From the human T2T-CHM13v2.0 reference genome, Homo sapiens, in assembly GCF_009914755.1 (NCBI RefSeq), contig NC_060929.1: 64,000 bases of DNA; one strand, written 5' to 3'. Positions 28,522 through 60,130 of the stretch are shown in pieces (positions within the stretch are counted from its first letter, which is position 1; every line of letters starts with the position of its first letter). The position numbers were made by a program, and so were the translations under genes. The notes beneath the pieces are model-generated. The model saw nothing but the letters and a program-made list of their open reading frames with translations, was not told where the DNA came from and ran no database searches.

Positions 28522-30595
28522 ATGGTGCCGCAGCAGGCTGCAGACACAAGGGAAGACTAACTAACCTCCTGAGCTGCCTCTGCCTGTCTAAATGAGCATC
28601 TGAGTCCAGTACCAAGGAGTTGAAGAAGGCTTTTTTGTGGGCAACGTCGTGGAGAACCTAGATGAGAAACCCTGAGCACCGGCTAGAGGTGAGTCCACTA
28701 TTTCTCCAAAGTCAGAAAAGCACACTTCTTCTAAATGCACAAAAGATCTGTTTGTAAATCAATGATTAAAGAAGATATGTAGAGAGATGCCCTAGTTCAC
28801 GTCTGCTGAGAGACCAGGTTGTTGAGAAGGACCCAGTGAAACTTCCTCAGGCTGCAGTAGAAATACTCGCTATATACATAATTATCTGGCTTCCCAGTGG
28901 AAGAAATAATAATGCCCTTTCTGGGGACATTATTTTCACATGCAGAATGTGCATGATTGTTAAGAGACATCAATTATCTACAAAGCTACTTACCCACTTG
29001 TGATATTTTTTCTTCTCAACATGCAGACTAAAGCCAGCCTGAACTGATTTTGAAAAATCTACTAAGCCTCATGTAAGGAATAGAGCATCACTACTGGTGA
29101 TGCTACCAACCTTGAAGAGGTTGGGGAAACAGGAAGATAGCAGTCCACCTTTTAAACATCATTAACAAGAAGTCTGTATGTAAGTGCTGGCATTAGGAGG
29201 AAGCCAAGAACAGTGTAGACAGTGGAGCTCAGAAAGCAGGCCACAGACCCTGATGATAGTTTTGTTGTAGTCTCAGCAATGCACCAAGATGTAACAGTCT
29301 CTCCTTGTCTGAGATAACACCCAGAGTTCTTTGTCCTACCTCCAAGAAGACACAAAGGTGAGGTTGGAGCGAAAGTTTAATAAGCGAAACAAGAAAGTTC
29401 TCTGTCAGCAGAGAGGCGGGCCTAAACAGGGTGCCCCGTGTGAGGCTGGGGTCCAGGGTTTTCAGGGGCTGGGAAGAGGAAGGAATGTGCTTAGTCCCTG
29501 GGCTGTCTGGAGAACATGTGACTCAGCTTGACCTGACATCAACCAGAAAGGTTTGCCCGGGACCTTGGGTTGGGAACAATCAGGGGCTGAAGTGATGATT
29601 CATAGAGCCCAGACTTACAGTCCAAAAAAGAAAGAAAAGTGCCCACCGGAACCCACTAGAGCCCACTGTGCCCCTGCCCACAAAAGGAGAAGAAACTTTT
29701 TCCTGGGAGCCTGCTGACTATACAAAGGACAAAGGCATTTCTATGCCAGGCCTTGTTCCCTTATCTGAGTGGGCCGGAGGTTTATGTACGTTTTTATTTC
29801 TATGCCAGGCCTTGTTCCCTTATCTGAGTGGGCCGGAGGTCTATGCAAGTTTTTATCCAAATGGGCCGGAGGTTTTTCTATCTGTGCAGCTGTGGGCCTG
29901 TCTCCAGGCACAACACCCTGTGCTAGTTCCTTATCAGTGCCTGCAGCTTGAATTTTTTTCCCAGGCTCCTTTTTATGTTATGTGGGGATGAGACACTGAC
30001 CCATGGGCTGGGGGCTCTCCAGGGACCCTTGCCTTGCTCTCTACCTAAGGCAAGCTAACTAACTCCTTTCAGTTTCAACACTGAAATAATTTGCTTTCTA
30101 AAATGAATCTCAGGGAAGACTTCTGGCCTATTTCACATGAATAAATGAATCTCAGAGATGTCTGGCCTATTTCACATGAATCTAGAGAGATCAGAGAGCG
30201 TAGAGAATTATAGACTTTGAAAACAGGGATTTTAAAGTTAAGGAGCTGCTCAAGTTGGAAGTGCAGGCCCTGGACAGAGGGATACTTTCTGGTCTTGAGC
30301 AAAAATCTCCAGTAGTTTCAGTCACACAACAACTTCCTGGAAATAATTATCACCCTCCTTAGAGGTCTGAGCCAGAAGAAAGAGAATCTACATTTCTTCT
30401 GAGTTCAGCAAGAAGATCATGAAGAAAATGAGCAGCTTTGATACTCCATTGCCAGATATGATCCTTCTGAGATATCACATATACTTAACTACTACAGCTT
30501 AGCATCCAGTGAATGCTAGGACACAGAAAGAATTTCTAACTACGATGTCTTTCAGCAATGCAAGATGCAGACCCTTTGGCCTTGACAATAGACCA
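28522..30595 (+). pseudogene. Relic protocadherin variable exon A (EC1-EC4), split by an LTR
   Basis: By-eye peptides EEGFFVGNVVENLD, AVEILAI, DINYLQSY, QPELILK, ATDPDD/SFNTEI (across LTR), IDFEN, LEVQALDRGILSG, NNFLEIIIT, NYYSLASSEC*DTERISNYDV in colinear cadherin order; stops and frameshifts. Confidence 0.85.
29263..30071 (-). mobile_element. ERV1 solo LTR (MER50-like)
   Basis: TG...CA termini, 4-bp TSD GTTT (29259-29262/30072-30075), internal ~45-bp tandem duplication. Confidence 0.8.
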
Positions 30596-35164: not shown

Positions 35165-35810
35165 GTTCGCTCACTCGTCTGAGGGTCCCAGTGGAAGGCG
35201 ACTAACTCCCCAGAGCGTGAGACCGGCTTTTCACGTCCAGCCGCAGCGAGCGCGGGGAATGGAGTTGGGGGTGGTGGGGTGGCTCTACCGCCTGTTCTGG
35301 GCTCTCACCCCAGTGCGGGGGAAGCCGCTCAACCCTACGCTCCGCCGCGGGCCGCCCCCTCCCCGCGCACTAAAATAACCCCCTGCTGCCGGCCCAGCGC
35401 GCGGCTCACTAGCGTTCCTGCGGCTCCTGGCGCACTGGCCGGGCCCCCAGCCGCCTCCAGCCTGGAGCCGCCATCCCTGCACCCGCAGGCGGGGGACGCG
35501 GACCGAATAAATACTTTTAGTGTACTGCGACTGGGCGCGGTGGCTCACTCCTGTATCCCAGCACTTTGGGAGGCCGAGGCGGGAGGATCGCTTGAGCCCA
35601 GGAGATCGAGACCAGCCTGGGCAATATGGCAAGACTCCATTTCTACAAAAACGAAAAAATACCCGGGCGCGATGGCGCGCGCCTGTGGTCCCAGCAATTC
35701 AGGAGAATGAAGCGAGGATCGCTTGAACCCGGGAGGTCGATGCTGCAGTGAGCTATGATCGCACACTGCACTCCAGGGTGGGCGAAAGGGTGAGGCTCTG
35801 TCTCAAAACA
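34860..35810. promoter_or_regulatory. CpG island over SLC25A2 5' end/promoter
   Basis: Dense CpG and high GC from the 5' CDS through 35520, continuing into a CpG-retaining Alu. Confidence 0.85.
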
Positions 35811-36520
35811 AAACCAAAACCAAGAAAACATGTAAAGCTTTTCGATAAATTCTTGCAATTATGGCCGGGAACTCTAGACGCCGCAGTTCAGCTGGCGGCA
35901 AAAGAAATGCTGTCCTAATCAGTCAGCCCTGCTTCTTTTCTTTTCTCTCTTTTTTTTTTTTTTTTTTTTTTTTTGACTTAGGGTCTCACTCGGCCGCCTA
36001 AGCTGGAGTTCAGTGGCGCGATCCTGGCTCACTGCAGCCCCAATCTCCTGGCCTCAGGCGATCCTCTCACCTCAGCCTCCTGAGTAGCTGAGACTAGAGG
36101 GACTACAGGCGCAAGCCACCACATCTGGCTAAATTTTGTATTGTACAGACGGGGTTTCGCCATGTTGCCCAGGCTAGTCTCGAACTCCTGAACTCAAGCA
36201 ATCCACCCACTGGCCTCCCAAAGTGTTGGGGCTTACAAGCATGAACCACCACACCCGGCCTATCCCACGCTTCTTACCATGCAAAAAACAAAAACAAACA
36301 ACCCGAAAAGAAGATGCCCTCACTTGAATAGACCCTGAATTCAGAGGGTCAATCTACAAGAAAACTGCTTTAAAGTAGATAAGACAGGCCAGGTGTGGTG
36401 GCTCATGCCTGTAATCCCAACACTTGGAGAGGCTGCGGAGGGAGGCTCATTTGAGCCTAGGAGTTCAAGGCTAGCTTGGGCAGCAAAATGAGACACCCCT
36501 TACCCCCTACAAAAAATAAA
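35529..36520. mobile_element. Alu(+) 35529-35828, Alu(-) 35934-36260, Alu monomer(+) 36387-36520
   Basis: Consensus matches; first two are tail-to-tail around the CSE. Confidence 0.9.
35854..35896 (+). promoter_or_regulatory. CSE/CTCF-like element upstream of (divergent from) SLC25A2
   Basis: TGCAAT at 35854, then AACTCTAGACGCCGCAGTTCAGC; box (CGCA) at 35882 with 28 bp spacing; ~200 bp from the relic exon once 2 Alus and MER41 are removed. Confidence 0.68.
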
Positions 36521-36535
36521 GTAGAGAAGACAAAC

Positions 36536-37170
36536 TGTCAGAGGCGCTGGAACCACAGCAACTCCATCTTGACTAGGGACTGAGTAAAATAAGGCCGAGA
36601 CCTACTGGACTGCATTCCCAGGAAGACAGGCATTCTAAGTCACAGGATGAGATAGGAGGCCGGCACAAGATACGGGTCACAAAGACCTTGCTGATAAAAC
36701 AGGTTTCAGTAAAGAAGCCAGCCAAATCCCACCAGAATCAAGATGGCATAATAAGTGACCTCTGGTCGTCCTTACTGCTCATTATACGCCAATTATAATG
36801 CATTAGCATGCTAAAAGACACGCCCACCAGCGCCGTGTCCACTTACAGATGCCATGGCAACAATAAGAAGTGACCCTATGTGGTCTAAAAAGGGGGAGGA
36901 ATCCTCAGTTCCGGTAACTTTGGACCCCTTTCCCAGAAACCTCATGAATAATCCACCCCTTGTTTAGCTTACATTCAATAAAAAACTGTAAGTATCCTTA
37001 GTCAAGCCGCCCAGGCCACTGCTGTGCCTATGGAGTAGCCATTCTTTTGCTTCTTTACTTCTCTAATAAACTTGCTTTCACTTGACTCTATGAACTTGCC
37101 CCAAATTATTTCTTGCATGAGATCCAAGAACAATCTCTTGGGTCTGGATCGGGACCCCTGTCCGGTAACG
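36536..37170 (+). mobile_element. MER41 (B-like) ERV1 solo LTR
   Basis: TGTCAGAGGCGCTGGAACCACAGCAACTCCATCTTG start, 635 bp, TSD AAAC, AATAAA near the 3' end. Confidence 0.88.
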
Positions 37171-37201: not shown

Positions 37202-38730
37202 GTGACTGCTTTTGATCAGAAAACCCTCAGCGATCTGCCCATGCTCCTCACTTTCCTGGGGGGCAAGGAGGGGAGTAGGGCACTGTGGGAATCCTTAGCC
37301 CTGGAGATGTGCTACTGCTTTCCTGCAGAGCTGGAGAAATGCTATCACATGGCAACATCCCCAAGGATCTGGGGTTGCAGCCCTGGGAACTGGTGGAACG
37401 TGGAGTCCTTATCATTTCTGAAGATAGAACACGGCACTATAAAATCAACTTGGAAAATGGATAGTATTTATATACTGCATTGCTAAGAAACTTGATAGAA
37501 AAGAGCTGGGTGGCTCAGCACTATGCTTTCTAAGTTTTGAGATTCTCTTTGAGGACCCACACAGCCTCATGCAGAAGTAGAAATTTGTCGTTTGTACACT
37601 GTTGGTGGGAATGTAAAATAGTTCAACCCCTATGGAAAGCAGTATGGAGATTTCTCAAAGAACTAAAATTGAACACCCATTCAACCCAGCAATCCCACTA
37701 TTAGGTATCTACCCAAAGGAAAAGAAATCATTTTATCAAAAAGACACCTGTGCTGGGGACAGTGACTTACACCTGTAATCCCAGAATTTTGGGAGCCCAA
37801 GCCAGGTAGATCGCTTGAGCCCAGGAGCTCCAGACCAGCCTGGACAACATGGCAAAATGCCATCTCTACAAAAAAATACAAAAAGTAGCCATGCATGATG
37901 GCATGCCCCTGTAGTGGCAGCTACACAGGAGGCGGAGATGGGAGGATTGACTGAGCTGAGTTGGAGGCTGCAGTGAGTTATGATCCAGCCTGGGTGGCAA
38001 AACAAGACCCTGTCTCCAAAAAAAAAACCAGAAAACATCTACACTCATATGTTTATGGAAGCACTATTCACAACAGGAAAGTCACAGAATCAATGTAAGT
38101 GTTCATCAATAGTTGATTGGATAAAGAAAATGTGGTATATGTATACCACGGAATACTATGCAGCCATAAAAAAGAATGAAATTATGTCCCTCACAACATG
38201 GATGGAGCTGGGGGCTGTTATTCTAGGTGAAATATCTTAGAACCAGAAAATCAAATACTGCATGTTCTCACTTATATAAGTGGGAGCTAAACAATGGGTA
38301 CACAAAGACATAAAGATGGGAATAACAGACACTGGGGAATCCAAAAGTGGGGAGGGTGGGAGGGATTGAGGGTTGAAAACCTACCTGTTGGGTACTACAT
38401 TCACTATGTGGGTGACGGGTTCACTAGAAGCCCAAACCTCAGCGTTACACAACATACCCATGTAACACACCTGCACATGTACTCCTTGAATCTAAAATGA
38501 AATTCAATTTAAAAAGAAGTAGAAGTTCGGGATACAAATGACATGTCTAGCTTTCAAAGCAAGATGTTTTTTGGACATTAGTGAGGATACCACTGTCAGG
38601 ACACACTTCTTCCTCCCAGATATTTATAATCCCAGCATTGGAATGAATTCTCTCCAGGCTTACATTCCAAGCCGTCGTCGGCCATGGGTAGTAAAAACAA
38701 AATCTGGGGGGAAGAAAGTATGCTGAAAGC
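37202..38730 (+). pseudogene. Relic gamma-A-type protocadherin exon B (signal, EC1, part of EC2), split by L1
   Basis: ALWESLALEMCYCFPAELEK, GNIPKDLGLQPWELVERGVLIIS, LDRKEL..LCFLSFEILFED, EVEVRDTND, LDISEDTT, IGMNSLQAY versus PCDHGA1 [23 protein letters not shown] and VGMNSLQSY. Confidence 0.92.
37588..38514 (+). mobile_element. L1 (L1MA/L1PB-like) 3' end with nested Alu (~37752-38030)
   Basis: ORF2-end/3'UTR sequence; TSD AGAAGTAGAA 37573-37582/38515-38524. Confidence 0.85.
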
Positions 38731-43629: not shown

Positions 43630-43713
43630 GTCTGGTACTGACTTGGAATGCATGCACTTGGAAAGTCAATACTGGACTATAATTGTTTTATTTTCAATTT
43701 TATCTCATGTTAG

Positions 43714-43756
43714 TACAGTACCTTACTTTGTATTCTGAATTTAGCTGCTCATTTAT
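43714..43756 (+). promoter_or_regulatory. Decayed CSE remnant
   Basis: TACAGT at 43714, TATTCTGAATTTAGCTGCTCATTTA with box (AGCT) at 43743; 29 bp spacing; 240 bp upstream of relic ATG. Confidence 0.4.
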
Positions 43757-43982
43757 GAAGGAGAGAAAAGAGAGACATCTAACCTTTCCCCTTTTGCTCT
43801 TCTATAAGGAGATACAATATAGAAACTGCATATGGCAACAGAAAGAACAGGATTTTTAAAAATGAATATGCTACATTAACCATTTGCCTGCTATTAATGG
43901 GAGTCAATGTACTAGCTACTATAAGAAAAAGAAACTGAAGCACAGATGTTAGAGAAATTTGAGGAATTAGAAGTACTAGAAA

Positions 43983-45530
<1,548 letters not shown>

Positions 45531-49165: not shown

Positions 49166-49812
49166 CTTTAAATATTTTCAAACCCAAGCTTCTCATAAAC
49201 CAACCTGTCAAACAAATTGCATACAACTCTGCCTCTTTTATCAGTAACTGATTTTTCAAAAATAGCTTATGTTGTGAGGCATTAGATTATCTTTAGAGCA
49301 TGAGAAATTTGGTACCAACTTCCTTTATGAGCAATTTTGATGAAATGACATTGATAAATGACCTCAGTTCTCAGAATATTAATTATAGGAACTCAACTGA
49401 AGAAAATTAGAAATATTAATCCAAACCAATGGAATGGTTCATTGGACTGCACTTGATAACCACTGCTTTGTTTCCAACATTTTATGCAGGTAGATTTAGC
49501 GCTTTTTAAAAAAGGCACAAAGGCCTTCATCTACAAAAATTAGGGTACTTTAAGAAAGCTCTGTATCTAATGTTTCCCAGCTTTCAAGTAGATCAAATAG
49601 AATTGAAATCTTAATATGATGCAAACATGACCATTCCCAATTTCTTTACCCCTGCTGTGTTCCTTTTTTTCATAAACCCTACTGCCTCTACCTGCAGAAC
49701 GGGATCAAATTGCTTAGTCACTAAACTCCACCATAAAACCACCTCACAAGAGGACCTGACTCCCACCAACCATGAAAGAACAAGATACACTATAAAGTGA
49801 AAAACAGATGCT

Positions 49813-49822
49813 TTTATTTATT
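49813..49822 (-). terminator. Likely TAF7 polyadenylation signal (two overlapping AATAAA)
   Basis: TTTATTTATT on plus strand, ~480 nt past the stop codon. Confidence 0.7.
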
Positions 49823-50297
49823 GTATTGGAAACAACTTAATAATTTGCATCTCTACATATAGAAAGCTGCTTTGAATAACTGGGAAAACAACTATTGCAT
49901 GGGAAAACATATGCAAACTAGCATCATTGTCTCTAGACTAGGTTCTTCTTATTGATCTCACGTCATCACAAAGCAGCAACAGCAGCTTCTAGAAAATGGA
50001 GAAACAGTAAAGTCCTGCAATGAAGCTATAATTAAGGTTGAACCATACATTCCGCTAATCCTGCAACTTTCCTACAATCATTTTTCTGCCTATACAATCC
50101 TGCTTCTTATAGGATGAACACCTAGCAAAACAATACAAATTTGCTGAAAAACAAAATTACAAACAAATGAAAGAACTTAACAGAACACACAGCATTAAAA
50201 GGACTAGGAAGAGCAAGGTCTTAATACCCAGTACAATAAAGCCAAGAATTTTCTAATGCTGACCAGTCTGAAGACTGAAATTAAATATCAGTTCTTT

Positions 50298-51347
50298 TTA
50301 CTTCTCTAGGAGTGATTCTAGCTCCTCTTGCAAAGAGCTGAGTTGCTCCTTTTCTCGGTCTTCCTTTTGTTTGAGCTCATCCAGTACAGCCTGAAATCTG
50401 TTCTTGAGAGCCAGATTTTCCACTTTCATGATGAGATCCTCTTGTCGTTTTGCCCTGTCCTGGGTCTCTTGGAGCTTGCCTTTCATGTTGTCAATCTGCT
50501 TCTGAATTCCCATAACCAGCTGATTGGTTCCTTCATTTTCCTGGTGCTGTTCATCTGATTCATTTAGCTTGTCCTGTAGCTGTCTCTCCAGATCTTCCTC
50601 CGTGTCAATGATGTTTATATCTTCTTCATCTTGATGCTGGGTCTCATCTTCATCCTCACTGCTGCTGCTGAGGTCATTGAATATCTCCCGAAGCTCATCA
50701 TGTTCTAATGAGTCATGGCCCTGCCTGTGACCAGACATTCCTGGAGAAGAGATATCCAGGCCTTGATTTTCTGCCTCCTTTGTTTCATCTTCGGCAATTA
50801 TTTCCCACCGAGTACTAACAGCTTCAGCATCTGTACTCAGCAATCGTTTCACTTCTTTTTCAACATCTGGAGATTCAATATATTTCTTCTTTGCTGTCTT
50901 CCGGAACCTTCTCTTCCTGACATTCTTTAGAGGCAGAGTAATTCCGTGGTTCCAGATAAACTTTTTCTCTTTGTCCTTATCCTTTTTCTTGCTTGCTTTA
51001 GGATCAGTGCTAGCAACTGGCTCCTCCACAGGAGGATAGAGATCACCATCAACTGTGGATACAAGCATCTGACAGATATCAGCTGTCTTGTAAAAAGTTT
51101 TTTTATCAATGGTTTTCAAGCTTTCCATAACACAGGGCAGGTCTACTAATTTTGAGGCCAATGGAACACGGTCCACTCTGACGATTCCATGACGCCCATC
51201 AGGATGTAACTCAATTGTCAGTCTGTCCTTGAGGTTGACATGACCAGACTGTACTGCCCTTCTCACAGTAGAGGCATATTCTGGAGGCAGACGTAAGATA
51301 AACTGGCTCTCCAGTTCGTGAGGAGCATCATCTTTGCTTTTACTCAT
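50298..51347 (-). CDS. TAF7: TFIID subunit 7 (TAFII55), 349 aa, intronless CDS
   Basis: ATG at 51347-51345 gives MSKSKDDAPHELESQFILRLP...; TAFII55 N-terminal domain, basic NLS KNVRKRRFRK, acidic stretch, C-terminal coiled coil; ORF-track start at 51368 is a GTG. Confidence 0.98.
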   Translation of the reverse strand: MSKSKDDAPHELESQFILRLPPEYASTVRRAVQSGHVNLKDRLTIELHPDGRHGIVRVDRVPLASKLVDLPCVMESLKTIDKKTFYKTADICQMLVSTVDGDLYPPVEEPVASTDPKASKKKDKDKEKKFIWNHGITLPLKNVRKRRFRKTAKKKYIESPDVEKEVKRLLSTDAEAVSTRWEIIAEDETKEAENQGLDISSPGMSGHRQGHDSLEHDELREIFNDLSSSSEDEDETQHQDEEDINIIDTEEDLERQLQDKLNESDEQHQENEGTNQLVMGIQKQIDNMKGKLQETQDRAKRQEDLIMKVENLALKNRFQAVLDELKQKEDREKEQLSSLQEELESLLEK

Positions 51348-51605
51348 CTTTATTTCCTTGTGATTCACTTCTCCAATAAATGCTGGTTACACTAAAAAGT
51401 TCCAGCTACTGCAATAGTTTAAAACACCAGTTTGCTATGAATTGAAATCTTTTAATTACAAGAAGTTCTCTGTAGATCAGCAGCTAAGCGTCTATTTTGC
51501 CTTAGTTTTTATTTAAGCTCCAAGTCTTTTCTCTAAATATGCTGTGACCGAATACCAGTCGTTAACACAAAGGCTGATTCACAGACTTAAGTTCATTAAA
51601 TCAGA

Positions 51606-51649
51606 TGCAATGCCAAGTCCCAACCTCTAGGTGCCGCTGCCGGACAACG
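51606..51649 (+). promoter_or_regulatory. CSE/CTCF-like element inside the TAF7 5' leader
   Basis: TGCAAT at 51606, then ACCTCTAGGTGCCGCTGCCGGACAACG; CGCT at 51635 is 29 bp from TGCA versus 28 bp in PCDHGA1. Confidence 0.72.
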
Positions 51650-52445
51650 CGGAGAGAGCTAGCTAGCTAGCTAGGGAACAGGAAAGCAAATGGCGGCTCC
51701 CCCGGAACGGTTTTCGGCCCAGAAAGCCCAGCAGAGATACTTTCAACTCACAAACTCTCCCGGAACAAAGACACTCAAAAAATCAGGGCTCAGCGAGCTC
51801 TCTTCGCCTCGGGTACTTACAATCCAGTGACGATTATAAGTTCAGTTTCACCGGGCCGGAGCGAAGGGAAGAGGAGGCCGCAAGGAGCCAAGCGGGAGAG
51901 AGCCGAGCGTCTCCTTGTCGTTTCCTTAATTCTTCCTGCCGCTTGGCAGAGTGATCCACTACCGATTACTGATGAAAGGGCCCGGGATGGGCAGCGCGAA
52001 ATCTTGCCGAGAGGCGCAGCTCGCATCACCAGACCCCGCACCTCGCCGGCCCTCCGTCCGGGTCGCCTACCCAGCAAAAACGGAAGTGCTACGTCGCGAC
52101 GCGGGGCGGGAGGCGGCTGTGAGTGACAGCCCCTCCGGGCGGAAGGGCGGAGCCCCAGCTAGCGCAGGCGCAATAGCGCAATTACGCTGCCCAGCGTGAA
52201 ACTCATCTTTTCGCGAGAACTTGTTTTTCCGGGATGGAAATGACAGTGTTTCGGAAGAGCTGTTGGTTTCAAACTATTTAGAGCTTGGAAGTTCCAAGAA
52301 AGACACAGATTCGTCCCCCGCTAAGCCAGCACTTTTACGGGATCGCTGTGGGGCCGGATGGCTTCTAGACTTCCGGGTGATTCCGGGAGATGGGGGACGC
52401 CTTGCAGTAAGCGTCTTTGCTTCTGGAAACATCTCGGATGTTCCC
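51630..52445. promoter_or_regulatory. TAF7 CpG-island promoter
   Basis: CpG-dense; ETS CGGAAGTG at 52081, GC boxes ~52103 and ~52145, CGCG-element-like TTTCGCGAGA 52209-52218, YY1-like AAATGGCGGC ~51688. Confidence 0.85.
51890..52290 (+). pseudogene. Relic gamma-B-type exon D (signal plus EC1) underlying the TAF7 promoter CpG island
   Basis: Hydrophobic LLVVSLILPAAW, then with frameshifts IHY(S)ITDERARDGQR(G)NLAE (cf. IRYSIPEELAKGSVVGNLAK), VRV..DA.., RDGNDSV..NYLEL; IHY-to-DxND distance 279 nt versus 282 nt in PCDHGA1; CSE upstream. Confidence 0.6.
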
Positions 52446-54252
52446 TAGAGTCTAGCCTATCTGGTGCCAATACAAGAATGTGTAGCTACTATACAATGGA
52501 TTTCAAAGTACCCAAATCAATGGAGTGAGGAGGACATGCAGCTTACTATATAAGTCTCTCTCTATATATATGTTTGTTTGTTTGTTTTGGAGATGGAGTC
52601 TCAGGCTGTCACCCAGGCTAGAGTGCAGTGGCACAATATTGGCTGACTGCAACCTCCACCTCTGGGGTTCAAGCGATTCTCCTGCTTCAGCCTCTTAAGT
52701 AGTTGGGATTACAGGCACGTTCCACTACCCCACCTAAGTTTTGTATTTTTAGTAGAGAAGGGGTTTCACCATGTTGGCCAGGCTGGTCTCGAACTCCTGA
52801 CCTGAGGTGATCTGCCTGTCTTGGCCTCCCAAAGTACTAGGATTATAGGTGTGAGCCAGCGCGCATGGCCCAAAGTCTGTATTTTTAAATATAATTCCCT
52901 GTAGGGGAATTGTGCCTCTGGTTTTACTTGTGTTCTATAATACTTCTGGGGAAACAAGGGTGATTCCTTTTTATGTGCTTGATTTAGATGTAAATGTAAA
53001 CAGAGAAGGAAGTGTTCTTTTGGACAGAATTGTCTGATAGACTGAGCATCTGGTTAAAGTAGATATAATTGAAGTATTGTTTCCTGTCTCTCATGTACAA
53101 GTAATTTTAAATTACTTTGACATTTTTTTTAACTCCACCTCTACTATTTTGCTGTTTTCTGCTTGTCTTTTCTATCAATAGTCAGGTATTCATCAACACA
53201 TATTTTTAGTATTTTAACATAACTGGGTAACAGTTGGTACTTATTTCTATTTATTTCCATTTATTTTTAAAATATCTGGGAGAGCATCAAGGCCATTAAT
53301 ATTTCATTTCTATCCTCTAAAATATTAACAATTGCCCCTAAATTTAAGAGAATTCTCTTAAGATGTAATTAACATTTCCAAAATTCACTTTATTCTTGTA
53401 TGATTGAAAGCTCCATGATAGTGATCTTCTTCTATCCTGGTCATTGTGTCCCAGTGCCTAGTACCGGAATGTGGGAGATACACAAAAAATATTTGCTAAT
53501 TGAATGAAAAAACTTATCTGTCTAGAAAGATCATAGTCTCAAATCCTGTAGTGATTTCTGAGAGAAAATACATTCTTTGTCATTTTAAAATGAGATAGAG
53601 CCACTTTACATACATTTCCTTTCTAGTCAAGGACAATTCTAATTGTTATGAGGTGGGGAGGTTTACTAATAGTGTGTGTGAATGTGGTTTAGCTAGAATG
53701 AGATACTGTTGTGGGAGGAAATTAAAATGACCTGACGTTAGTTTGGTTTTTAATGTTAATTTTAAAAGAGAAAGTATGCCCTTCCAGATAACGGTAAATT
53801 ATTTCTCTTTGCTTATAATGTGTTGAAGAATGTTAGCTGACTTACTTGTAATTTCCAGAATGATCTATTTCCTCTTTTTCAAAGATGAAGTTTTTTCTGT
53901 TACAGGCTTGAGCCACCTCGCCTGGCTGTGTTTTGTTTAACCATATACAATGTGAGGTCATTATACATGAAAATAATCCAAATATTACTCAGCATCTTCC
54001 CTATGAGTTTTATGATGCTCAAATATTCTTATCATAGAAGGTAACTTGAGATAAATTGTATGCAATTTTTCATTTTCCAAAATTACTGTGTATTTTAGTT
54101 TCTAAACCTTTCTTTACATGGAATATTGCCAGACATAATTAAAAGGATTAACTGAGGTTTTCTTAATGTATCTAGCTCCTTCAGTCCTGAAATACATTTT
54201 CTGCTTTTGAGTTTAACACATTTTCTATATGCTGTTTTAGGGGAGGAAATTA

Positions 54253-55015
<763 letters not shown>

Positions 55016-55597
55016 CCAGTTTTTTTTTTAAAAAAAGTTCCATTAGACATTCAGAAAAACTCTGAATTGATGAATTACACTCCTGTGGTTGTTCCATGGA
55101 ATATCTGTGATACCAGTGAACAAAAGATTTGGGGAGAGCAATAAATTCCCCAGTGTGGTAACAAGTCCTCCAAAGGCTTCCTGTCTGTGATTAAGGAGTG
55201 TGGCAATCAGGTTACTAATAATCGTGTATGTTTGAAAATTCCCTTTAATACACTTTCTAGTTCTTTAAAGGGCTCCAAAATATAAGCTGCCCTTTAATAC
55301 ACTTTTTAGTTCCTTAAAGGGCTGCTTATACTTTGGAGGTTAAATTATGGGTGATGGGAGAAATCCTGCTTATATTTAGGAGGTAGAAAATTATAGGGGT
55401 GAGGAAATAGCAAATACCACAGAAAAGCCAGCTTACATATTGCTATATCACCATATATTTTAAAGATAAAAAGGTTAACTAAAAATATTTAGCAGTTCTT
55501 GTATCTAGTAGGATGTTTTCTATAGGAAAACATTAAAATCTAATTTATGCTGGTTTAAACAGTAAGAAAATCTATGATCCCAAAATACAGGTAGTCT

Positions 55598-55927
55598 AGC
55601 ACAGCTTTGTCCTATAGAAATATGATGTGGGCCACAGATGGTCAGCCACAGATGTGATTTTAGATTATCTAGTAGCCACATTCAAATAGCAAAAAGAAAC
55701 AAGTGAAATTTCAATAATTTTAATCCAATATATCTAAGATATAATTGCAACATATTTTTACAATAATGTAAAGATATTAATAATACGTTTTACATTCTTG
55801 TTTTGTACTAAATCTTCAACACCTAGTGTGTGTTTTACACTTACAGCACATCTCAGTTTAGACTAGCTGCACTTCAAGTGCTCAGTGGCCACGTGTGGCT
55901 GGTTGTTACTCTAGTGGACAGTGCAGG
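55598..55927. mobile_element. MER33/MER3-type hAT-Charlie DNA transposon
   Basis: TCTAGTAGCCACATT...CACTTCAAGTGCTCAGTGGCCACGTGTGGCTGG. Confidence 0.75.
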
Positions 55928-56249
55928 TCTAGAAGTTTCACTGCCTCTAGGCCAGATACAATCATGGTGTAGCACAAATTGTTTTTTCTTCCTAATTTTG
56001 AAGAATGAGCACTTATTTATACTTTTTCTGTTGTTTCAGCTCTGCTTTCCTCTCCTTGTGGAATTCTAAAGGCTGTAGTCACAAGATACCAGCCAGCAGC
56101 AATAACTGGAGAACTTTCTTCATTGTCCGTGACAAGAGAGTTACTCTCCCCAAACAGTCTATCTTTCAATCCAACTGGACCAACTTAGGCCATGTTCCTG
56201 TTCTTAGCTCAGTAATACTAGGGAAATACCCTAAGCCTGTGTTTCTGAA

Positions 56250-56447
56250 AATGGTTGGGGAGAGGTGAGGTGACATTTGGTAATGTCTGGAGACATTTAT
56301 GGTTGTCACAACTGTGGGGGGTGGGTCCTACTGGTATCTAGTATATAGAGACCAGGGATACTGCTAAACATTTTACAAGGCACAGAACAGCTCCCCACCA
56401 CAAAGAATTATATGGCTCAAAATAGTACCAGGGTTGAGAAGCCCTGC
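56250..56447. mobile_element. MER20 DNA transposon
   Basis: GACATTTGGTAATGTCTGGAGACATTT...GGTTGAGAAGCCCTGCT. Confidence 0.8.
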
Positions 56448-57147
56448 TTTAAGCTTATTATTTTAAGTCTATATTCCTAACTAAGCACTGTCAAGAGGAT
56501 GAGATTATCATTATTAGATTAAATTTATCAGAACCTACTACAGCTCTGAATAGGTTCTGCTTCCCTAGGTACATTAAGGGCGAACACCTAAACTAAAAGG
56601 AAGTGTTACAAGAGGAAAAAGGGGCATGAGCAACCAATAGTATCCATAAAAGAGCTGCTTATTTTTGTAATTGTGAAAGTATATATCTATTTTTAAAGTA
56701 TGGATAAGCATCGAATGTAAATTCTTTATATCAGTAGTTACATAATGCAATTATTCATAATTTTACATTTTTATCAGTATTTTCTACCTTTTATAGTGAA
56801 ATTTTCTCCTTTAATATATTGAATTTACAGTGAGAATTTTTTATAATTTTTTTACAGTGGATAATTTCTTGAGTAGCCATTTTTACAGAAAATAAGTTTC
56901 AATAGTGTGTCATCTTGAAAAGGAAATGTCAAGAGGGAAAAATTTGTAAGAATTCTTAGTCGAATTTTAATGTATTTTAGGCTGGGTGCGGTGGTTCACA
57001 CCTGTAATCCCAGCACTTTGGGAGGCCAAGGCGGACGGATTACCTGAGATCAGGAGTTCGAGACCATCCTGGCCAGCATGGCGAAACCCCATCTCTATTA
57101 AAAGTACAAAAATTAGTTGAGCATCGTGGTGTGTACATGTAATCCTA

Positions 57148-57279
<132 letters not shown>

Positions 57280-57467
57280 TTAAGAATTTTAATAAAACGT
57301 TAGAACTAAATTTTGTGAAATGATCATTTTGCTAATATTTTATCAAAAACAATGATTTGTACCCTTCTTAGTAAAGCAGCTGGTATTTTAAAATATGTCT
57401 CGAGAAAAAAGCCAATACAGTCTCTTTTGAGGACCTTGAAAACTAACCTGCTAGGGATATCATACTA

Positions 57468-57495
57468 GGCCTCTGGGTGCCGCTGTCCGCCAATC
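57468..57495 (+). promoter_or_regulatory. Orphan CSE/CTCF element of a gamma-B relic exon
   Basis: GGCCTCTGGGTGCCGCTGTCCGCCAATC aligns with the PCDHGA1 CSE; ~300 bp upstream of the relic signal-peptide remnant. Confidence 0.8.
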
Positions 57496-57759
57496 CGTGG
57501 CTGGAGGGAAACAAAGCAATCCACTGACGCAGCAGTCCCCGCAGGCTTTTGAGACACACATTAGGAGAGGACTCTGCCCGCTGTCTGTCTCACAATCTGC
57601 TCGAAATATCTTGGTCAGGAATCTCAGGATGTCTAGTGACCCCGAGTGAGGTGCTGCCGTTTATTCCTGAGCATCTTTGGAAGCAGGAAGCAGGGAGCAA
57701 CGGTAGCGAGAGGTATTCGGATCTGAGTATCAGCAGGAAGAAGAAACAGAGGAAGAAGT

Positions 57760-60130
57760 CCCCCATAAGGAAGGCGTGAGGAGCGCAGGAAGCGCTGTTT
57801 CCCTGCCTGAGATCTTTATTCTACTAGGTCTTTATTCTACGTAGCCGATACGCTGTAAAATTCTGGAAGAGAAGGCTAGGGGTTTAAGGTTGGTAATCTC
57901 TCAGAAGATCTGCGTCTCGGTGACGGAAAGAACTAAGGGTAAGTGCTGAGAAGCCTCTCTTTACAGCCAGAGAACGAGCCAGAGCCGAGCTTGAGAATGA
58001 CGGGATAGATCTAGCAGTTATGCCCAAGGAAGACCCTCGGCCCTTTGAATTTGAAGGCACTGAAAATCGTATAAATGTTTTCATATAAACGTATGCATCT
58101 TTGATATAAATAACAAAATGGCTTTTAGCACAAATTTTGTTTTGGAAATTTTGAAAAACGTCTTAATAAGAGGAATGTTTACTCTTAAGTCTGCAGTAGA
58201 TTTTGAACACCGGCAGTAACTGTACAAATATATCAGATTAGTTTTAATAGCCATCTCCCCTTCCCCTACAAGTAAAGGAGAGTACTACAGCAGTATGTAC
58301 TCTGAATTGCTGCTATTGAAGAACCCCTGAGCCTGTGCAGCGTGGCACTCCTGTGGTCCCCATTACTCAGGAGGCTGAGGCAGGAGGATTGCTTGATGCC
58401 AGCTAGAGGCTGCAGTGCACTATGAGAACACCTGTGAATAGCCACTGCATTCCAGCCTGAGTAACATGGCCAGACCCCATCTCTTAAGAAAAGAAAAGAA
58501 ACCCTGAACCAGAGGAGCAGAGCTGCCACCACTTAGTGGTGGGGATGGGGCAGAACAGCTCAGGGCAAGACACAGGCCTTGGATGCCAATGCCAGCCGTC
58601 AGATATTGAGCAATGTGTAAGTGGGGTTAGCCTGCATGAGAACCTGCTCGCCACCTCCTCCTCTTCATTCTTTAGGTGATCCCCATTGACCTAGACAATA
58701 TCTTTAATATAGAGTTCTCCTGATTTTTCTACACAATTTTACAGGGCATACAGAATATATTTCCTGTCCAATAATGACAGAAATACTTGATTTTGAAGAG
58801 TAACAGTTATAGCTTGGAATAGAAGACTGGAGGCAGTTTGAGGGCCGACTTCAGAGTCCTGGTTGAAATGAAGGTTGAGAAGTATAATGCAGTCAGTGCA
58901 GGTGACTTTCAGCTGGGTATCTAGTCCTATCAGAGGTAAAAACTGTGGTTGCCCTAACCAAAACAATAGGACTAAGAGACCTTAAATGAAAGATGAAAGT
59001 TATTATAGAGAGAAATGATCATACTGGCAAACAATTCACCTCCAAGAATTATGATGTGACTCTTTGTCAGATACTCACAGATGGAATTCTAAACTGGTAG
59101 CAGACCCTGAAGGACAATGTCACCATCAGAACCACCAACAAGGACAAACTGTCCCTCTCCTGCATCACCCTGCATACCATCTGCATCCACAAAAATGCTC
59201 ATTCTTCAACAAGCCTCCTATTTCTTTTGGGTGACTGGGAACACTGCCCAGCACCTCCATCACATGCTTTAGCGCTTCCCACCCTAACTTAGGGTCCCAT
59301 ATGCCTCCTGTTTCTTCTTGACCAGTGACCTGCCACTGTGGGCACTGTCATTCTACATGTCAGTGAGTGCAGAGTGCTATGGTTACCATGCAGACTATCT
59401 TTGAGCTGACTCTGCAGGCCAGTGACCAGGGTTCAACTTGCTCAGTGTCATCCTGAACCTGCATGTGATGGTGGATGACCATTGCAAAAATGCAAGGACA
59501 CTATGCCAGGAGTTGCAGCCAAGTGGGGCCCACTTTGATGCTGCACCACTCACAATGCAACCCAGCTATCCCATCACCAAAGTGGACACCAGCTGGGGCA
59601 TAAAGGCTGACTGTCCTATCATGTGCTTCAGGCCAGCTAATGTGGCTCTTCAAACTAGGGATGTGCACGAGCTAGATGCGTGCCGTGTCACTGTGGGTAA
59701 CAGAGATGCAACCTGCCAAGGTTTGTTGGTCACCGTGGTCAATGGTGAATCATCACGCTGAAACATCACCTGGTTGCTGCTCATAGTTTGCAGGAGTTGC
59801 TACCAGACCTCAGCAATCGCCCAGCACCCAACAGCAGGCAGCAGACAGCACCCAACAGCTGGCGATGGCCGTTGCCTTGATCTCCATGCTGTTTCTCCTC
59901 AGTGTGACTCTGGCCATCTCTCTGAACCTGCAATGCCCCCTATAGCTCCATTGCCTGGGGCTGTTTTCAGCTGGATCTCTGGTCCAAGCCCGGATATGGA
60001 GTTGTCTCCAACTTAAAGAAAGGAAATTTGCCCTGTTCCTACAACGTATGTGTGGTTTTAGATATTTTTAAAATCTTAATTTCTTTAACTCAAGAAACAG
60101 CTTTGAACCAGGTATTCTCTGCAGTGCCAG
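57760..60130 (+). pseudogene. Near-full-length relic gamma-B-type protocadherin exon E
   Basis: ALFPCLRSLFY, PIRCKILEEKARG, VGNLSEDL, LRVSAEK, FHINVCIFDINN, EEQSCHHLV, FELTLQASDQGS, LSYHVLQAS, GNRDATCQGLLVTV, SLQELLPDLSNRP, VALISMLFLLSVTLAISL (TM), AWGCFQ, GNLPCSYNVCV. Confidence 0.93.

What the first reader, a model, noticed from the sequence alone, without database searches (positions are those of the whole stretch)
51606..52290. TAF7 promoter and 5' leader look like a dead protocadherin gamma-B promoter/exon read backwards
Seen: on the plus strand the TAF7 CpG island carries, in order, a CSE/CTCF-like element (TGCAAT...ACCTCTAGGTGCCGCTGCCGG, 29-bp module spacing versus 28 in PCDHGA1), a hydrophobic signal-like stretch (LLVVSLILPAAW) and ATCCACTACCGATTACTGATGAAAGGGCC...AATCTTGCCGAG. 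With two 1-nt gaps the latter reads IHY(S)ITDERARDGQR(G)NLAE versus gamma-B IRYSIPEELAKGSVVGNLAK. RDGNDSV follows 279 nt after IHY (282 nt in PCDHGA1). Housekeeping motifs (ETS, GC box, CGCG element) lie inside this former EC1. Established: TAF7 has an intronless CDS, and Pcdh-alpha variable exons have exon-internal antisense promoters that transcribe back through the promoter CTCF site. Inference: a TAF7 retrocopy landed just upstream of a Pcdh variable-exon promoter and captured its exon-internal antisense transcription, turning a neuronal stochastic-promoter unit into the promoter of an essential basal transcription factor. I do not know of this being described but cannot check the literature.
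Basis: partly seen in the sequence, partly recalled or inferred. Interest (0 to 1): 0.92.

Follow-up and report, generated by a model that had tools for sequence, protein, structure and literature searches.

The report
Dead protocadherin promoter inside TAF7's leader
About half of the untranslated leader of the essential transcription-factor gene TAF7 is the backwards-read remnant of the promoter and first few codons of a dead gamma-B protocadherin exon, which shows where this intronless gene copy landed and leaves a likely CTCF site inside it.

Summary
DNA profiles built only from PCDHG genes outside the window hit the + strand of the TAF7 leader. The 20-gene promoter-to-EC1 profile gave 51492-51899, E 4.6e-7. 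A gamma-B-only profile gave 51602-52008, E 6.8e-6.

A gamma-B signal/EC1-start profile without the CSE hits 51913-52009 at E 3.2e-4, and 0 of 2000 shuffles reach its score. The 16-mer CSE core occurs only four times in the genome.

Three parts are not supported:
- The rest of EC1, including RDGNDSV, gives no hit.
- The exon body gives no hit.
- A Pcdh origin for the TAF7 core promoter is not shown.

Protein-level tests saw nothing convincing. The proposed capture of an exon-internal antisense promoter conflicts with a report that gamma exons lack one.

Best reading: the TAF7 retrocopy landed about 250 bp upstream of a gamma-B-type variable-exon promoter. It is now transcribed antisense through that stub. 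I found no description of this in the papers searched.

The parts
51602..52009 (+). Remnant ('relic D') of the 5' end of a gamma-B-type protocadherin variable-exon unit: promoter module, 5'UTR, signal peptide and first ~18 codons of EC1. It makes up 408 of the 740 nt of the TAF7 5'UTR, read antisense.
   Evidence: nhmmer with a profile of 8 gamma-B genes from outside the window: 51602-52008, E 6.8e-6, 17.2 bits. The 20-gene profile gives 51492-51899, E 4.6e-7. All 9 gamma-B-type sequences rank above 12 gamma-A and 2 beta sequences in identity.
51606..51611 (+). TGCAAT, matching the conserved TGCAGT motif upstream of gamma CSEs. Spacing to the CSE is one base longer than the consensus.
   Evidence: Aligned to the upper-case (conserved) TGcAGT columns of both profiles. 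Alignment A1.
51624..51639 (+). CSE core with CGCT box (CCTCTAGGTGCCGCTG). It is a forward-oriented CTCF-type site by homology.
   Evidence: 15 of 16 bases identical to the CSE of the neighbouring gamma-B pseudogene at 57470-57485. Only 4 exact genome-wide matches to the R-degenerate 16-mer. PWM score 23.6 bits, within the 16.9-46.9 bit range of functional gamma CSEs.
51911..51946 (+). Signal-peptide-like hydrophobic stretch (LLVVSLILPAAW). No ATG remains upstream.
   Evidence: Translation. Aligned with high posterior probability to the gamma-B signal-peptide columns. Part of the sigB hit 51913-52009.
51954..52009 (+). First ~18 codons of EC1 (IHY..ITDE..NLA) with two 1-nt deletions.
   Evidence: nhmmer alignment. 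sigB profile E 3.2e-4, and 0 of 2000 shuffles reach 15.3 bits. Alignment A2.
51348..52087 (-). TAF7 5'UTR (single exon). It runs antisense through the relic.
   Evidence: RefSeq NM_005642.3 coordinates supplied with the finding. CDS confirmed as one open frame.
49793..51347 (-). TAF7 coding sequence and 3'UTR, the retrocopied body. Its 5' border lies somewhere in 51348-51600.
   Evidence: One uninterrupted 349-aa match on chr5, against split matches on the X chromosome. AATAAA lies before the 3' end and no poly(A) tract is left.
52081..52218 (.). TAF7 core-promoter motifs (ETS-like CGGAAGT, TCGCGA, GC boxes, TCGCGAGA) around and upstream of the TSS. No detectable Pcdh homology.
   Evidence: Read. 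No profile hit in 52009-52420. A deletion running from within the first 80 nt of the 5'UTR to ~850 nt upstream reduces TAF7 transcription (PMC8770142, passages).
52230..52250 (+). RDGNDSV, proposed EC1/EC2 DxNDN motif. Present in the sequence but not supported as homologous.
   Evidence: string. (no EC1 hit).

Best explanation
Window 51602-52009 (+) is the surviving 5' stub of a dead gamma-B-type clustered-protocadherin variable-exon unit. It contains the TGCART motif, the CSE/CGCT box, the 5'UTR, the signal peptide and about 18 codons of EC1. The start codon is lost and there are two frameshifts.

The stub is one of a row of dead variable exons, all on the + strand, that fill the spacer between the beta and gamma clusters. 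TAF7 is an intronless copy of a TAF7L-like gene. It sits in the opposite orientation, with its start codon about 280 bp upstream of that CSE.

TAF7 transcription starts at 52087. That is 78 nt beyond the last detectable homology and inside the same CpG island. It then runs antisense through the stub into the coding body.

Shown: the homology, its gamma-B type, its strand and its spacing.

Inferred:
- The retrocopy landed in the AT-rich DNA just upstream of a live or recently dead variable-exon promoter.
- It came to use the unit's CpG island as its promoter region.
- The stub outlived the exon body because it lies in an unmethylated island and in the leader of an essential gene.
- The CSE still binds CTCF.
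For: DNA profiles from PCDHG genes outside the window hit the TAF7 leader in 7 of the 15 profile searches run on the window:
- full: E 4.6e-7.
- prom: E 0.001.
- utr: E 0.094.
- fullB: E 1.2e-5.
- upB: E 0.0065.
- fullB2: E 6.8e-6.
- sigB: E 3.2e-4.

The same profiles find PCDHGA1 and the other relics as positive controls.

Shuffle controls:
- 0 of 1000 shuffles with the core kept reach the 'full' score. 6 of 1000 reach the 'prom' score.
- 0 of 2000 reach the sigB score.

Two loci elsewhere in the genome carry the identical 16-mer. They score 0.5 and -4.1 bits with 'full', against 21.2 bits here.

CSE PWM: 23.6 bits, third best of 128 kb scanned, and all five hits above 10 bits are on the + strand.

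The CSE lies 328 nt before the first mature codon. The 21 functional sites span 267-369 nt (305-369 in 20 of them).

The GC/CpG profile rises at the CSE exactly as in gamma-B genes.

TAF7L is split on the X chromosome and TAF7 is uninterrupted. Taf7 and Slc25a2 are absent from the anole and non-tetrapod clusters (PMC2764143). The TAF7 island is constitutively unmethylated (PMC2776977).
Against: 8 of the 15 profile searches gave no hit in the region: ec1, fullA, upA, ec1A, ec1B, sigAB, exonB and exonA.

Nothing is detectable from 52009 to 57285, so only a stub is shown.

Protein-level tests were negative or marginal:
- Pfam gave 0 of 6 frame pieces.
- EC1-only PSSM: 124 of 300 and 161 of 300 shuffles reach the score. 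Whole profile: 13 of 300 and 11 of 300.
- tblastn with 121 Pcdh proteins gave no EC1 hit at E<=10.

Masking the (AGCT)n tract at 51648-51675 abolishes the 'full' hit and lowers 'prom' to 6.6 bits. Part of the flank score therefore rests on a microsatellite, or on the alignment being split by the mask.

The borders of the sigB profile were chosen after I had seen the alignment.

Overall identity to gamma-B genes is only 39-46%.

No other species, CTCF data or TSS data could be examined. No poly(A) tract or target-site duplication is left.
Confidence: 0.78

Rival explanations
1. Secondary acquisition. The stub is Pcdh-derived, but it was copied or converted into an already existing TAF7 leader from a neighbouring gamma-B unit. 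On this view it is not the landing site of the retrocopy.
For: Only a 408-nt stub exists, with no exon body at all downstream. The other relics in the spacer keep exon pieces. The CSE core is 15 of 16 identical to the pseudogene 5.8 kb away.
Against: Identity to that pseudogene over the whole stretch is only 42%, no higher than to the gamma-B genes, so there is no sign of a recent copy. The stub sits where a unit is expected in the array, 5.7 kb before the next one. The island's left edge coincides with the CSE as in live genes.
Confidence: 0.1
2. The whole TAF7 island, including the core promoter, is former EC1. TAF7 captured a pre-existing exon-internal antisense promoter of the Pcdh-alpha kind.
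For: The TSS lies where EC1 would be, 133 nt after the first mature codon. The island profile matches gamma-B genes up to about +100. The antisense promoter architecture is documented for alpha exons (10.1101/360206, passages).
Against: No homology beyond 52009. The relic is gamma-B type, and the same preprint says beta and gamma exons lack the exonic CTCF site and antisense promoter. There is no second CTCF-like site at 51900-52500 in a consensus scan allowing 2 mismatches.
Confidence: 0.1
3. Chance resemblance: an ordinary CTCF site in a housekeeping CpG island plus fortuitous similarity.
For: Protein-level tests are at chance. The generic CTCF consensus is not enriched in the window, with 7 matches against 5.5 expected. 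The (AGCT)n tract inflates some scores.
Against: Two non-overlapping signals, the CSE PWM and sigB, are each rare. They lie on the right strand at the right distance. Loci with the same core score near zero. The ranking is specific to gamma-B.
Confidence: 0.03

Closest known systems
Clustered protocadherin variable-exon promoters with the conserved sequence element (CSE / promoter CTCF site) of PCDHGB genes
   Same: TGCART motif, CSE core with CGCT box, CCAA-like box after it, orientation, distance to the first mature codon, signal peptide and EC1 start, and CpG profile.
   Different: No ATG, two frameshifts, no exon body and no splice donor. The stub is transcribed from the other strand as the leader of an unrelated gene.
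Degenerate variable-exon pseudogenes and 'relics' of the Pcdh clusters (PCDHGB8P, and the pieces found here at 28.6, 37.2, 45.1 and 57.3 kb). That Wu et al. 2001 described relics is recalled; the paper was not held.
   Same: Same strand, same unit spacing and the same kind of decay.
   Different: The others keep exon-body pieces and lie in untranscribed spacer. This one keeps only the promoter-proximal stub and is embedded in an essential gene's 5'UTR.
Retrogenes that recruit a promoter or CpG island from the DNA flanking their insertion site. The general concept is recalled from the retrogene literature. One example seen in a search listing and abstract only is amphioxus SYCP1 beside the ParaHox cluster (PMC5803294).
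   Same: Intronless copy of a multi-exon gene, with the TSS outside the copied body and in a neighbouring gene's CpG-rich 5' region.
   Different: The donor is a dying member of a tandem variable-exon array. The transcript runs back through the donor's promoter, so it overlaps rather than diverges. No 5'UTR intron was created.
Pcdh-alpha convergent promoter pair (promoter CTCF site plus exonic CTCF site with antisense lncRNA)
   Same: Antisense transcription that starts inside the exon region and runs through the sense promoter's CTCF site (10.1101/360206).
   Different: The relic is gamma-B type, for which that architecture is reported absent. No second CTCF-like site was found. The product is an mRNA, not a lncRNA.

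Membership tests
Clustered Pcdh variable-exon unit (gamma-B type) | CSE with CGCT box matching the gamma consensus | tested here: met
   PWM of 20 functional gamma CSEs gives 23.6 bits. The functional leave-one-out range is 16.9-46.9 bits. Shuffles give 0.01 hits of 20 bits or more per window.
Clustered Pcdh variable-exon unit (gamma-B type) | Same orientation as the cluster, with the CSE about 270-370 nt before the first mature codon | tested here: met
   + strand. Distance 328 nt, against 267-369 nt in the 21 functional sites used (305-369 in 20 of them, PCDHGC3 267).
Clustered Pcdh variable-exon unit (gamma-B type) | Signal peptide and EC1 start homologous to gamma-B | tested here: met
   sigB profile E 3.2e-4, and 0 of 2000 shuffles reach it. 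All 9 gamma-B-type sequences rank first. The mixed gamma-A plus gamma-B profile gave no hit.
Clustered Pcdh variable-exon unit (gamma-B type) | Complete ~2.4 kb exon with six cadherin repeats and a transmembrane segment | tested here: not met
   No hit of the exon or EC1 profiles in 52009-57285. No Pfam cadherin hit.
Clustered Pcdh variable-exon unit (gamma-B type) | Open reading frame with start codon | tested here: not met
   No ATG at the expected place, two 1-nt deletions, and the pieces lie in three frames.
Clustered Pcdh variable-exon unit (gamma-B type) | CTCF/cohesin occupancy of the CSE | not testable with these tools
   Sequence only. Both variant bases of the core also occur in CSEs of intact gamma genes. 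The island is reported unmethylated.
Retrogene with recruited promoter | Intronless copy of a multi-exon parent or paralogue | tested here: met
   TAF7 is one 349-aa match on chr5. The X-linked paralogue matches in separate pieces, aa 49-97, 93-139 and 276-316.
Retrogene with recruited promoter | Absent from the orthologous site in outgroups | not tested
   Taken from PMC2764143 (passages). No non-human genome was available here.
Retrogene with recruited promoter | Poly(A) tract and target-site duplications | tested here: not met
   No A-run after the 3' end. This is expected for an old insertion, so it is uninformative.
Retrogene with recruited promoter | TSS lies in DNA that was not part of the copied mRNA | tested here: met
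   Pcdh-derived DNA (51602-52009) lies between the start codon (51347) and the TSS (52087) (annotation).
Pcdh-alpha-type convergent promoter pair | Second, exonic CTCF site next to the antisense TSS | tested here: not met
   No CSE-like or CTCF-consensus site in 51900-52500. The literature says gamma exons lack it.

The most novel reading that the evidence does not exclude
The CpG-island promoter region of mammalian TAF7 is the exapted CpG island of a gamma-B protocadherin variable exon. Its retained forward CSE sits in a constitutively unmethylated island and acts as an always-on CTCF anchor between the beta and gamma clusters, which would shape loops to the downstream super-enhancer. SLC25A2 shows the same pattern, with a decayed CSE module about 500 nt from its TSS. 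This suggests that both retrogenes survived because they landed against Pcdh promoters.
Probability: 0.3. Interest if true: 0.75.

Novelty: new variant of a known kind. Interest (0 to 1): 0.62.

Why it matters
- It pins down, to within about 250 bp, where and how an essential TFIID subunit gene acquired its 5' end after retroposition. It is a clean case of a housekeeping gene built on the carcass of a stochastically expressed neuronal gene unit.
- It predicts a forward CTCF site in the beta/gamma spacer that, unlike the variable promoters, should never be methylated. People who model Pcdh promoter choice and loop extrusion may need to count it.
- It shows that the spacer is an array of dead variable exons, which helps to date the contraction of the cluster.
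- It is a caution on method. Protein-level and mixed-family profiles missed a relic that a subfamily DNA profile found.

Tried and rejected
- Pfam scan of the six open pieces of 51667-52448: no cadherin hit.
- Frameshift-aware alignment of the PCDHGA1 protein to 51600-52500: best scores 27-46, and the claimed alignment was not the optimum.
- Frameshift-aware PSSM of 71 Pcdh N-termini, mostly gamma-A and bird sequences. It did place IHY on the IxY column. The whole-profile score was reached by 13 of 300 and 11 of 300 shuffles, EC1 alone by 124 of 300 and 161 of 300, and signal alone by 26 of 300. At that point I read the finding as chance.
- tblastn of 121 Pcdh proteins: no EC1 hit at the site. 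There was one weak non-collinear hit, 51947-52093 to cytoplasmic residues 787-834, E 0.035, taken as compositional.
- Gamma-A-only, EC1-only, mixed signal and whole-exon DNA profiles: no hit at the site.
- Search for the rest of EC1 and of the exon: nothing.
- Leader against the whole genome: only itself, so no match to the TAF7L 5'UTR or to a processed copy at that sensitivity.
- Rfam on 51000-53000: nothing.
- Wu et al. 2001 could not be read.
- The beta cluster could not be fetched whole, so only PCDHB14 and PCDHB15 5' regions were compared.
- One search was an empty script.

Full report
**What was claimed.** From these it inferred that TAF7 is a retrocopy that landed next to a gamma-B protocadherin variable exon and took over its exon-internal antisense promoter.

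**The strings are there.** Searches show the following:
- TGCAAT at 51606-51611.
- CCTCTAGGTGCCGCTG at 51624-51639.
- LLVVSLILPAAW at 51911-51946.
- IHY at 51954-51962, with ITDERARDGQR and NLAE in the other two frames.
- RDGNDSV from 52230.

The 279 nt against 282 nt spacing is correct. The ETS-like, GC-box and TCGCGA motifs lie at 52081-52218.

**First pass, protein level: no signal.**
- Pfam found cadherin domains in PCDHGA1 but in none of six translated pieces of the region.
- A frameshift-aware alignment of the PCDHGA1 protein gave only scattered low scores.
- I built a position-specific matrix from 71 non-redundant Pcdh N-termini taken from a homologue search.
  - Its best frameshift-aware alignment did fall on the claimed place.
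  - The score was reached by 13 of 300 and 11 of 300 dinucleotide shuffles for the whole profile.
  - It was reached by 124 of 300 and 161 of 300 shuffles for EC1 alone, and by 26 of 300 for the signal alone.
- tblastn with 121 Pcdh proteins found no EC1 match at the site.

On this evidence alone the finding looked like chance.

**What changed the picture.** The same tblastn found real dead variable exons elsewhere in the window, all on the + strand:
- 37309-37551 and 38547-38720.
- 45083-45440.
- 57795-60048.

The last is a nearly complete gamma-B-like pseudogene. Its promoter carries CCTCTGGGTGCCGCTG at 57470-57485, 15 of 16 bases identical to the TAF7 element.

In the window, the 16-mer with up to 3 mismatches hits only these two sites and the PCDHGA1 CSE, against 0.51 expected. 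In the whole genome the exact R-degenerate 16-mer occurs 4 times. With up to one mismatch it occurs 121 times, against 14 for the reversed control. Two of those one-mismatch sites lie on chr5, and one of them is 69 nt before the PCDHGB1 TSS.

**DNA profiles.**
- I fetched the PCDHG variable region and located 24 variable exons.
- I built nhmmer profiles from genes outside the window, covering -520 to +420 around the first mature codon.
- The first profile used 11 gamma-A genes and 9 gamma-B-type genes.
  - It found PCDHGA1 at E 8.5e-140.
  - It found the pseudogene at 57 kb at E 4.4e-20.
  - It found the relic at 37 kb at E 1.8e-12.
  - It found the TAF7 leader, 51492-51899 +, at E 4.6e-7 and 21.2 bits.
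- A gamma-B-only profile of 8 genes aligned 51602-52008 at E 6.8e-6.
  - That alignment runs through TGCAAT, the CSE, the CCAA-like box, the 5'UTR and the signal peptide.
  - It continues into GATCCACTAC-CGATTACTGATGAA..AATCTTGCC.
- A gamma-B profile of only -75 to +90, with no CSE, hits four true Pcdh starts and 51913-52009 at E 3.2e-4. None of 2000 shuffles of 51860-52160 comes near it, the maximum being 6.1 bits against 15.3. I chose that profile's borders, which makes it slightly optimistic.

**Controls.**
- Loci elsewhere in the genome with the identical 16-mer score 0.5 and -4.1 bits with the 20-gene profile.
- With the core kept and the flanks shuffled, 0 of 1000 reach 21.2 bits. For the promoter-only profile, 6 of 1000 reach 13.5 bits.
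- A PWM of 20 functional gamma CSEs gives five hits above 10 bits in 128 kb, all on the + strand.
  - The hits are 29656 (10.7 bits), 35866 (14.9), 51619 (23.6), 57465 (43.6) and 61707 (39.1, PCDHGA1, which was not in the PWM).
  - Shuffled windows give 0.01 hits of 20 bits or more, and 1 of 3000 island shuffles reaches 20 bits.
- The TAF7 site lies inside the leave-one-out range of functional sites, 16.9-46.9 bits. It sits 328 nt before the first mature codon, against 267-369 nt for the 21 functional sites (305-369 in 20 of them, PCDHGC3 267).
- In a 445-nt alignment, all 9 gamma-B-type sequences are closer to the TAF7 stretch (39-46% identity) than any of 12 gamma-A or 2 beta sequences (35-39%).
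- The GC and CpG profile is AT-poor in CpG up to -400. It jumps at the CSE and peaks around the exon start, as in live gamma-B genes.

**Results against.**
- Of 15 profile searches of the window, 8 gave nothing at the site: EC1-only, gamma-A-only, mixed signal and whole-exon profiles.
- Masking the (AGCT)n tract at 51648-51675 removes the hit of the 20-gene profile and lowers the promoter profile to 6.6 bits. Part of the flank score therefore depends on a microsatellite, or on an unbroken alignment.
- Beyond 52009 there is nothing. No hit at any threshold was found for the rest of EC1 in 52009-52420 or for the exon body up to 57285.
- RDGNDSV and the idea that the housekeeping motifs lie in 'former EC1' are therefore extrapolations.

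**TAF7 as a retrocopy.**
- The TAF7 protein matches chr5 as one open stretch and the X chromosome in separate pieces.
- Jiang et al. 2009 state that Slc25a2 and Taf7 are absent from the anole and non-tetrapod Pcdh clusters and were inserted in the mammalian lineage (PMC2764143, passages).
- The leader has no other copy in the genome.
- No poly(A) tract remains.
- Pcdh-derived DNA lies between the start codon (51347) and the TSS (52087). The TSS is therefore outside the copied mRNA body, whose 5' border must lie in the AT-rich 51348-51600.

**How it most likely works.**
- The retrocopy inserted head-on, about 250 bp upstream of a gamma-B-type unit's CSE.
- Transcription from the unit's CpG island, in the antisense direction, gave it expression.
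- The exon body was later lost, while the stub survived inside an unmethylated island and an essential gene's leader. The TAF7 island is reported as constitutively unmethylated within the methylated Pcdh domain (PMC2776977, passages).
- The functional promoter maps to the stretch from the first 80 nt of the 5'UTR to about 850 nt upstream (PMC8770142, passages). That is just beyond the stub.
- These steps are inferred, not shown.

The Canzio et al. preprint says beta and gamma exons lack the exonic CTCF site and the antisense promoter (10.1101/360206, passages).

**Novelty.** Five searches covered:
- TAF7 with protocadherin and cluster.
- Relics and pseudogenes of variable exons.
- TAF7 with CTCF and Pcdh.
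- TAF7 or TAF7L with retrogene terms.
- TAFII55 with protocadherin.

None of them turned up a paper linking the TAF7 leader or promoter to a Pcdh unit. I saw only listings, abstracts and the passages cited. I opened no supplements. The key early paper, Wu et al. 2001, was not held. I recall that it describes relics, and it may map some of those seen here. Dead variable exons and promoter recruitment by retrogenes are both known kinds. The combination seen here appears new: an essential housekeeping gene reading backwards through a Pcdh promoter that keeps its CSE.

**Verdict.**
- Observation: partly confirmed. The promoter module and exon start are confirmed; the rest of EC1 is not.
- Interpretation: partly supported.
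- Interest: 0.62.

Noticed in passing
window 57285-60126 (+): Nearly complete gamma-B-like variable-exon pseudogene just upstream of PCDHGA1, with its own CSE at 57470-57485. The whole-exon gamma-B profile gives E 5.9e-153 for 58496-60126 and 2.6e-28 for 57850-58359. There are stop codons in the EC1 part. It is not in the supplied gene table. The RefSeq 'enhancer' at 57629-57748 falls in its 5'UTR.
   Followed up: partly
window 35856-35897 (+), next to the SLC25A2 TSS at 35348 (-): Decayed gamma-A-type promoter module, TGCAAT-N12-CTCTAGACGCCGCAGTTCAGC. PWM 14.9 bits, fourth best in the window, with 0.05 such hits expected per shuffled window. The gamma-A profile gives E 0.14. An Alu-like insert lies between it and the SLC25A2 TSS. 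The second retrogene of the cluster therefore also sits head-to-head with a relic Pcdh promoter. The hit is not significant on its own.
   Followed up: partly
window 37225-37584 and 38479-38727 (+): Gamma-A-like relic covering the signal peptide and EC1, and part of EC2. Gamma-A profile E 1.1e-25, tblastn E 7e-9. What looks like an inserted repeat lies upstream at about 36800-37160.
   Followed up: partly
window 45083-45440 (+), perhaps with 43712-44035: Relic of EC2-EC3 (tblastn E 7e-8). A weak gamma-A promoter/5'UTR-like hit lies 1 kb before it (E 0.0012), but no clear CSE is visible in the sequence.
   Followed up: partly
window 28615-28908 and 30157-30547 (+): Further gamma-A-like relic pieces. 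EC1 gives E 1.2e-5 to 4e-5, and exon columns 771-1168 give E 1.5e-7. Together with the others this makes the beta/gamma spacer a row of dead variable exons about 5-9 kb apart, all on the + strand.
   Followed up: no
window 51651-51672: (AGCT)n microsatellite directly after the CSE in the TAF7 leader. It carries part of the profile score.
   Followed up: yes
window 51947-52093 (+): Weak tblastn match to residues 787-834 (cytoplasmic part) of gamma-A1 proteins, best E 0.035. It is not collinear with the relic and is probably compositional.
   Followed up: no
outside the window: window-equivalent 171729-172358 (locus L020): The gamma-B-like relic between PCDHGA12 and PCDHGC3 appears to carry an Alu. 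A profile that included it hit many masked repeats in the window. It was dropped from the later profiles.
   Followed up: partly
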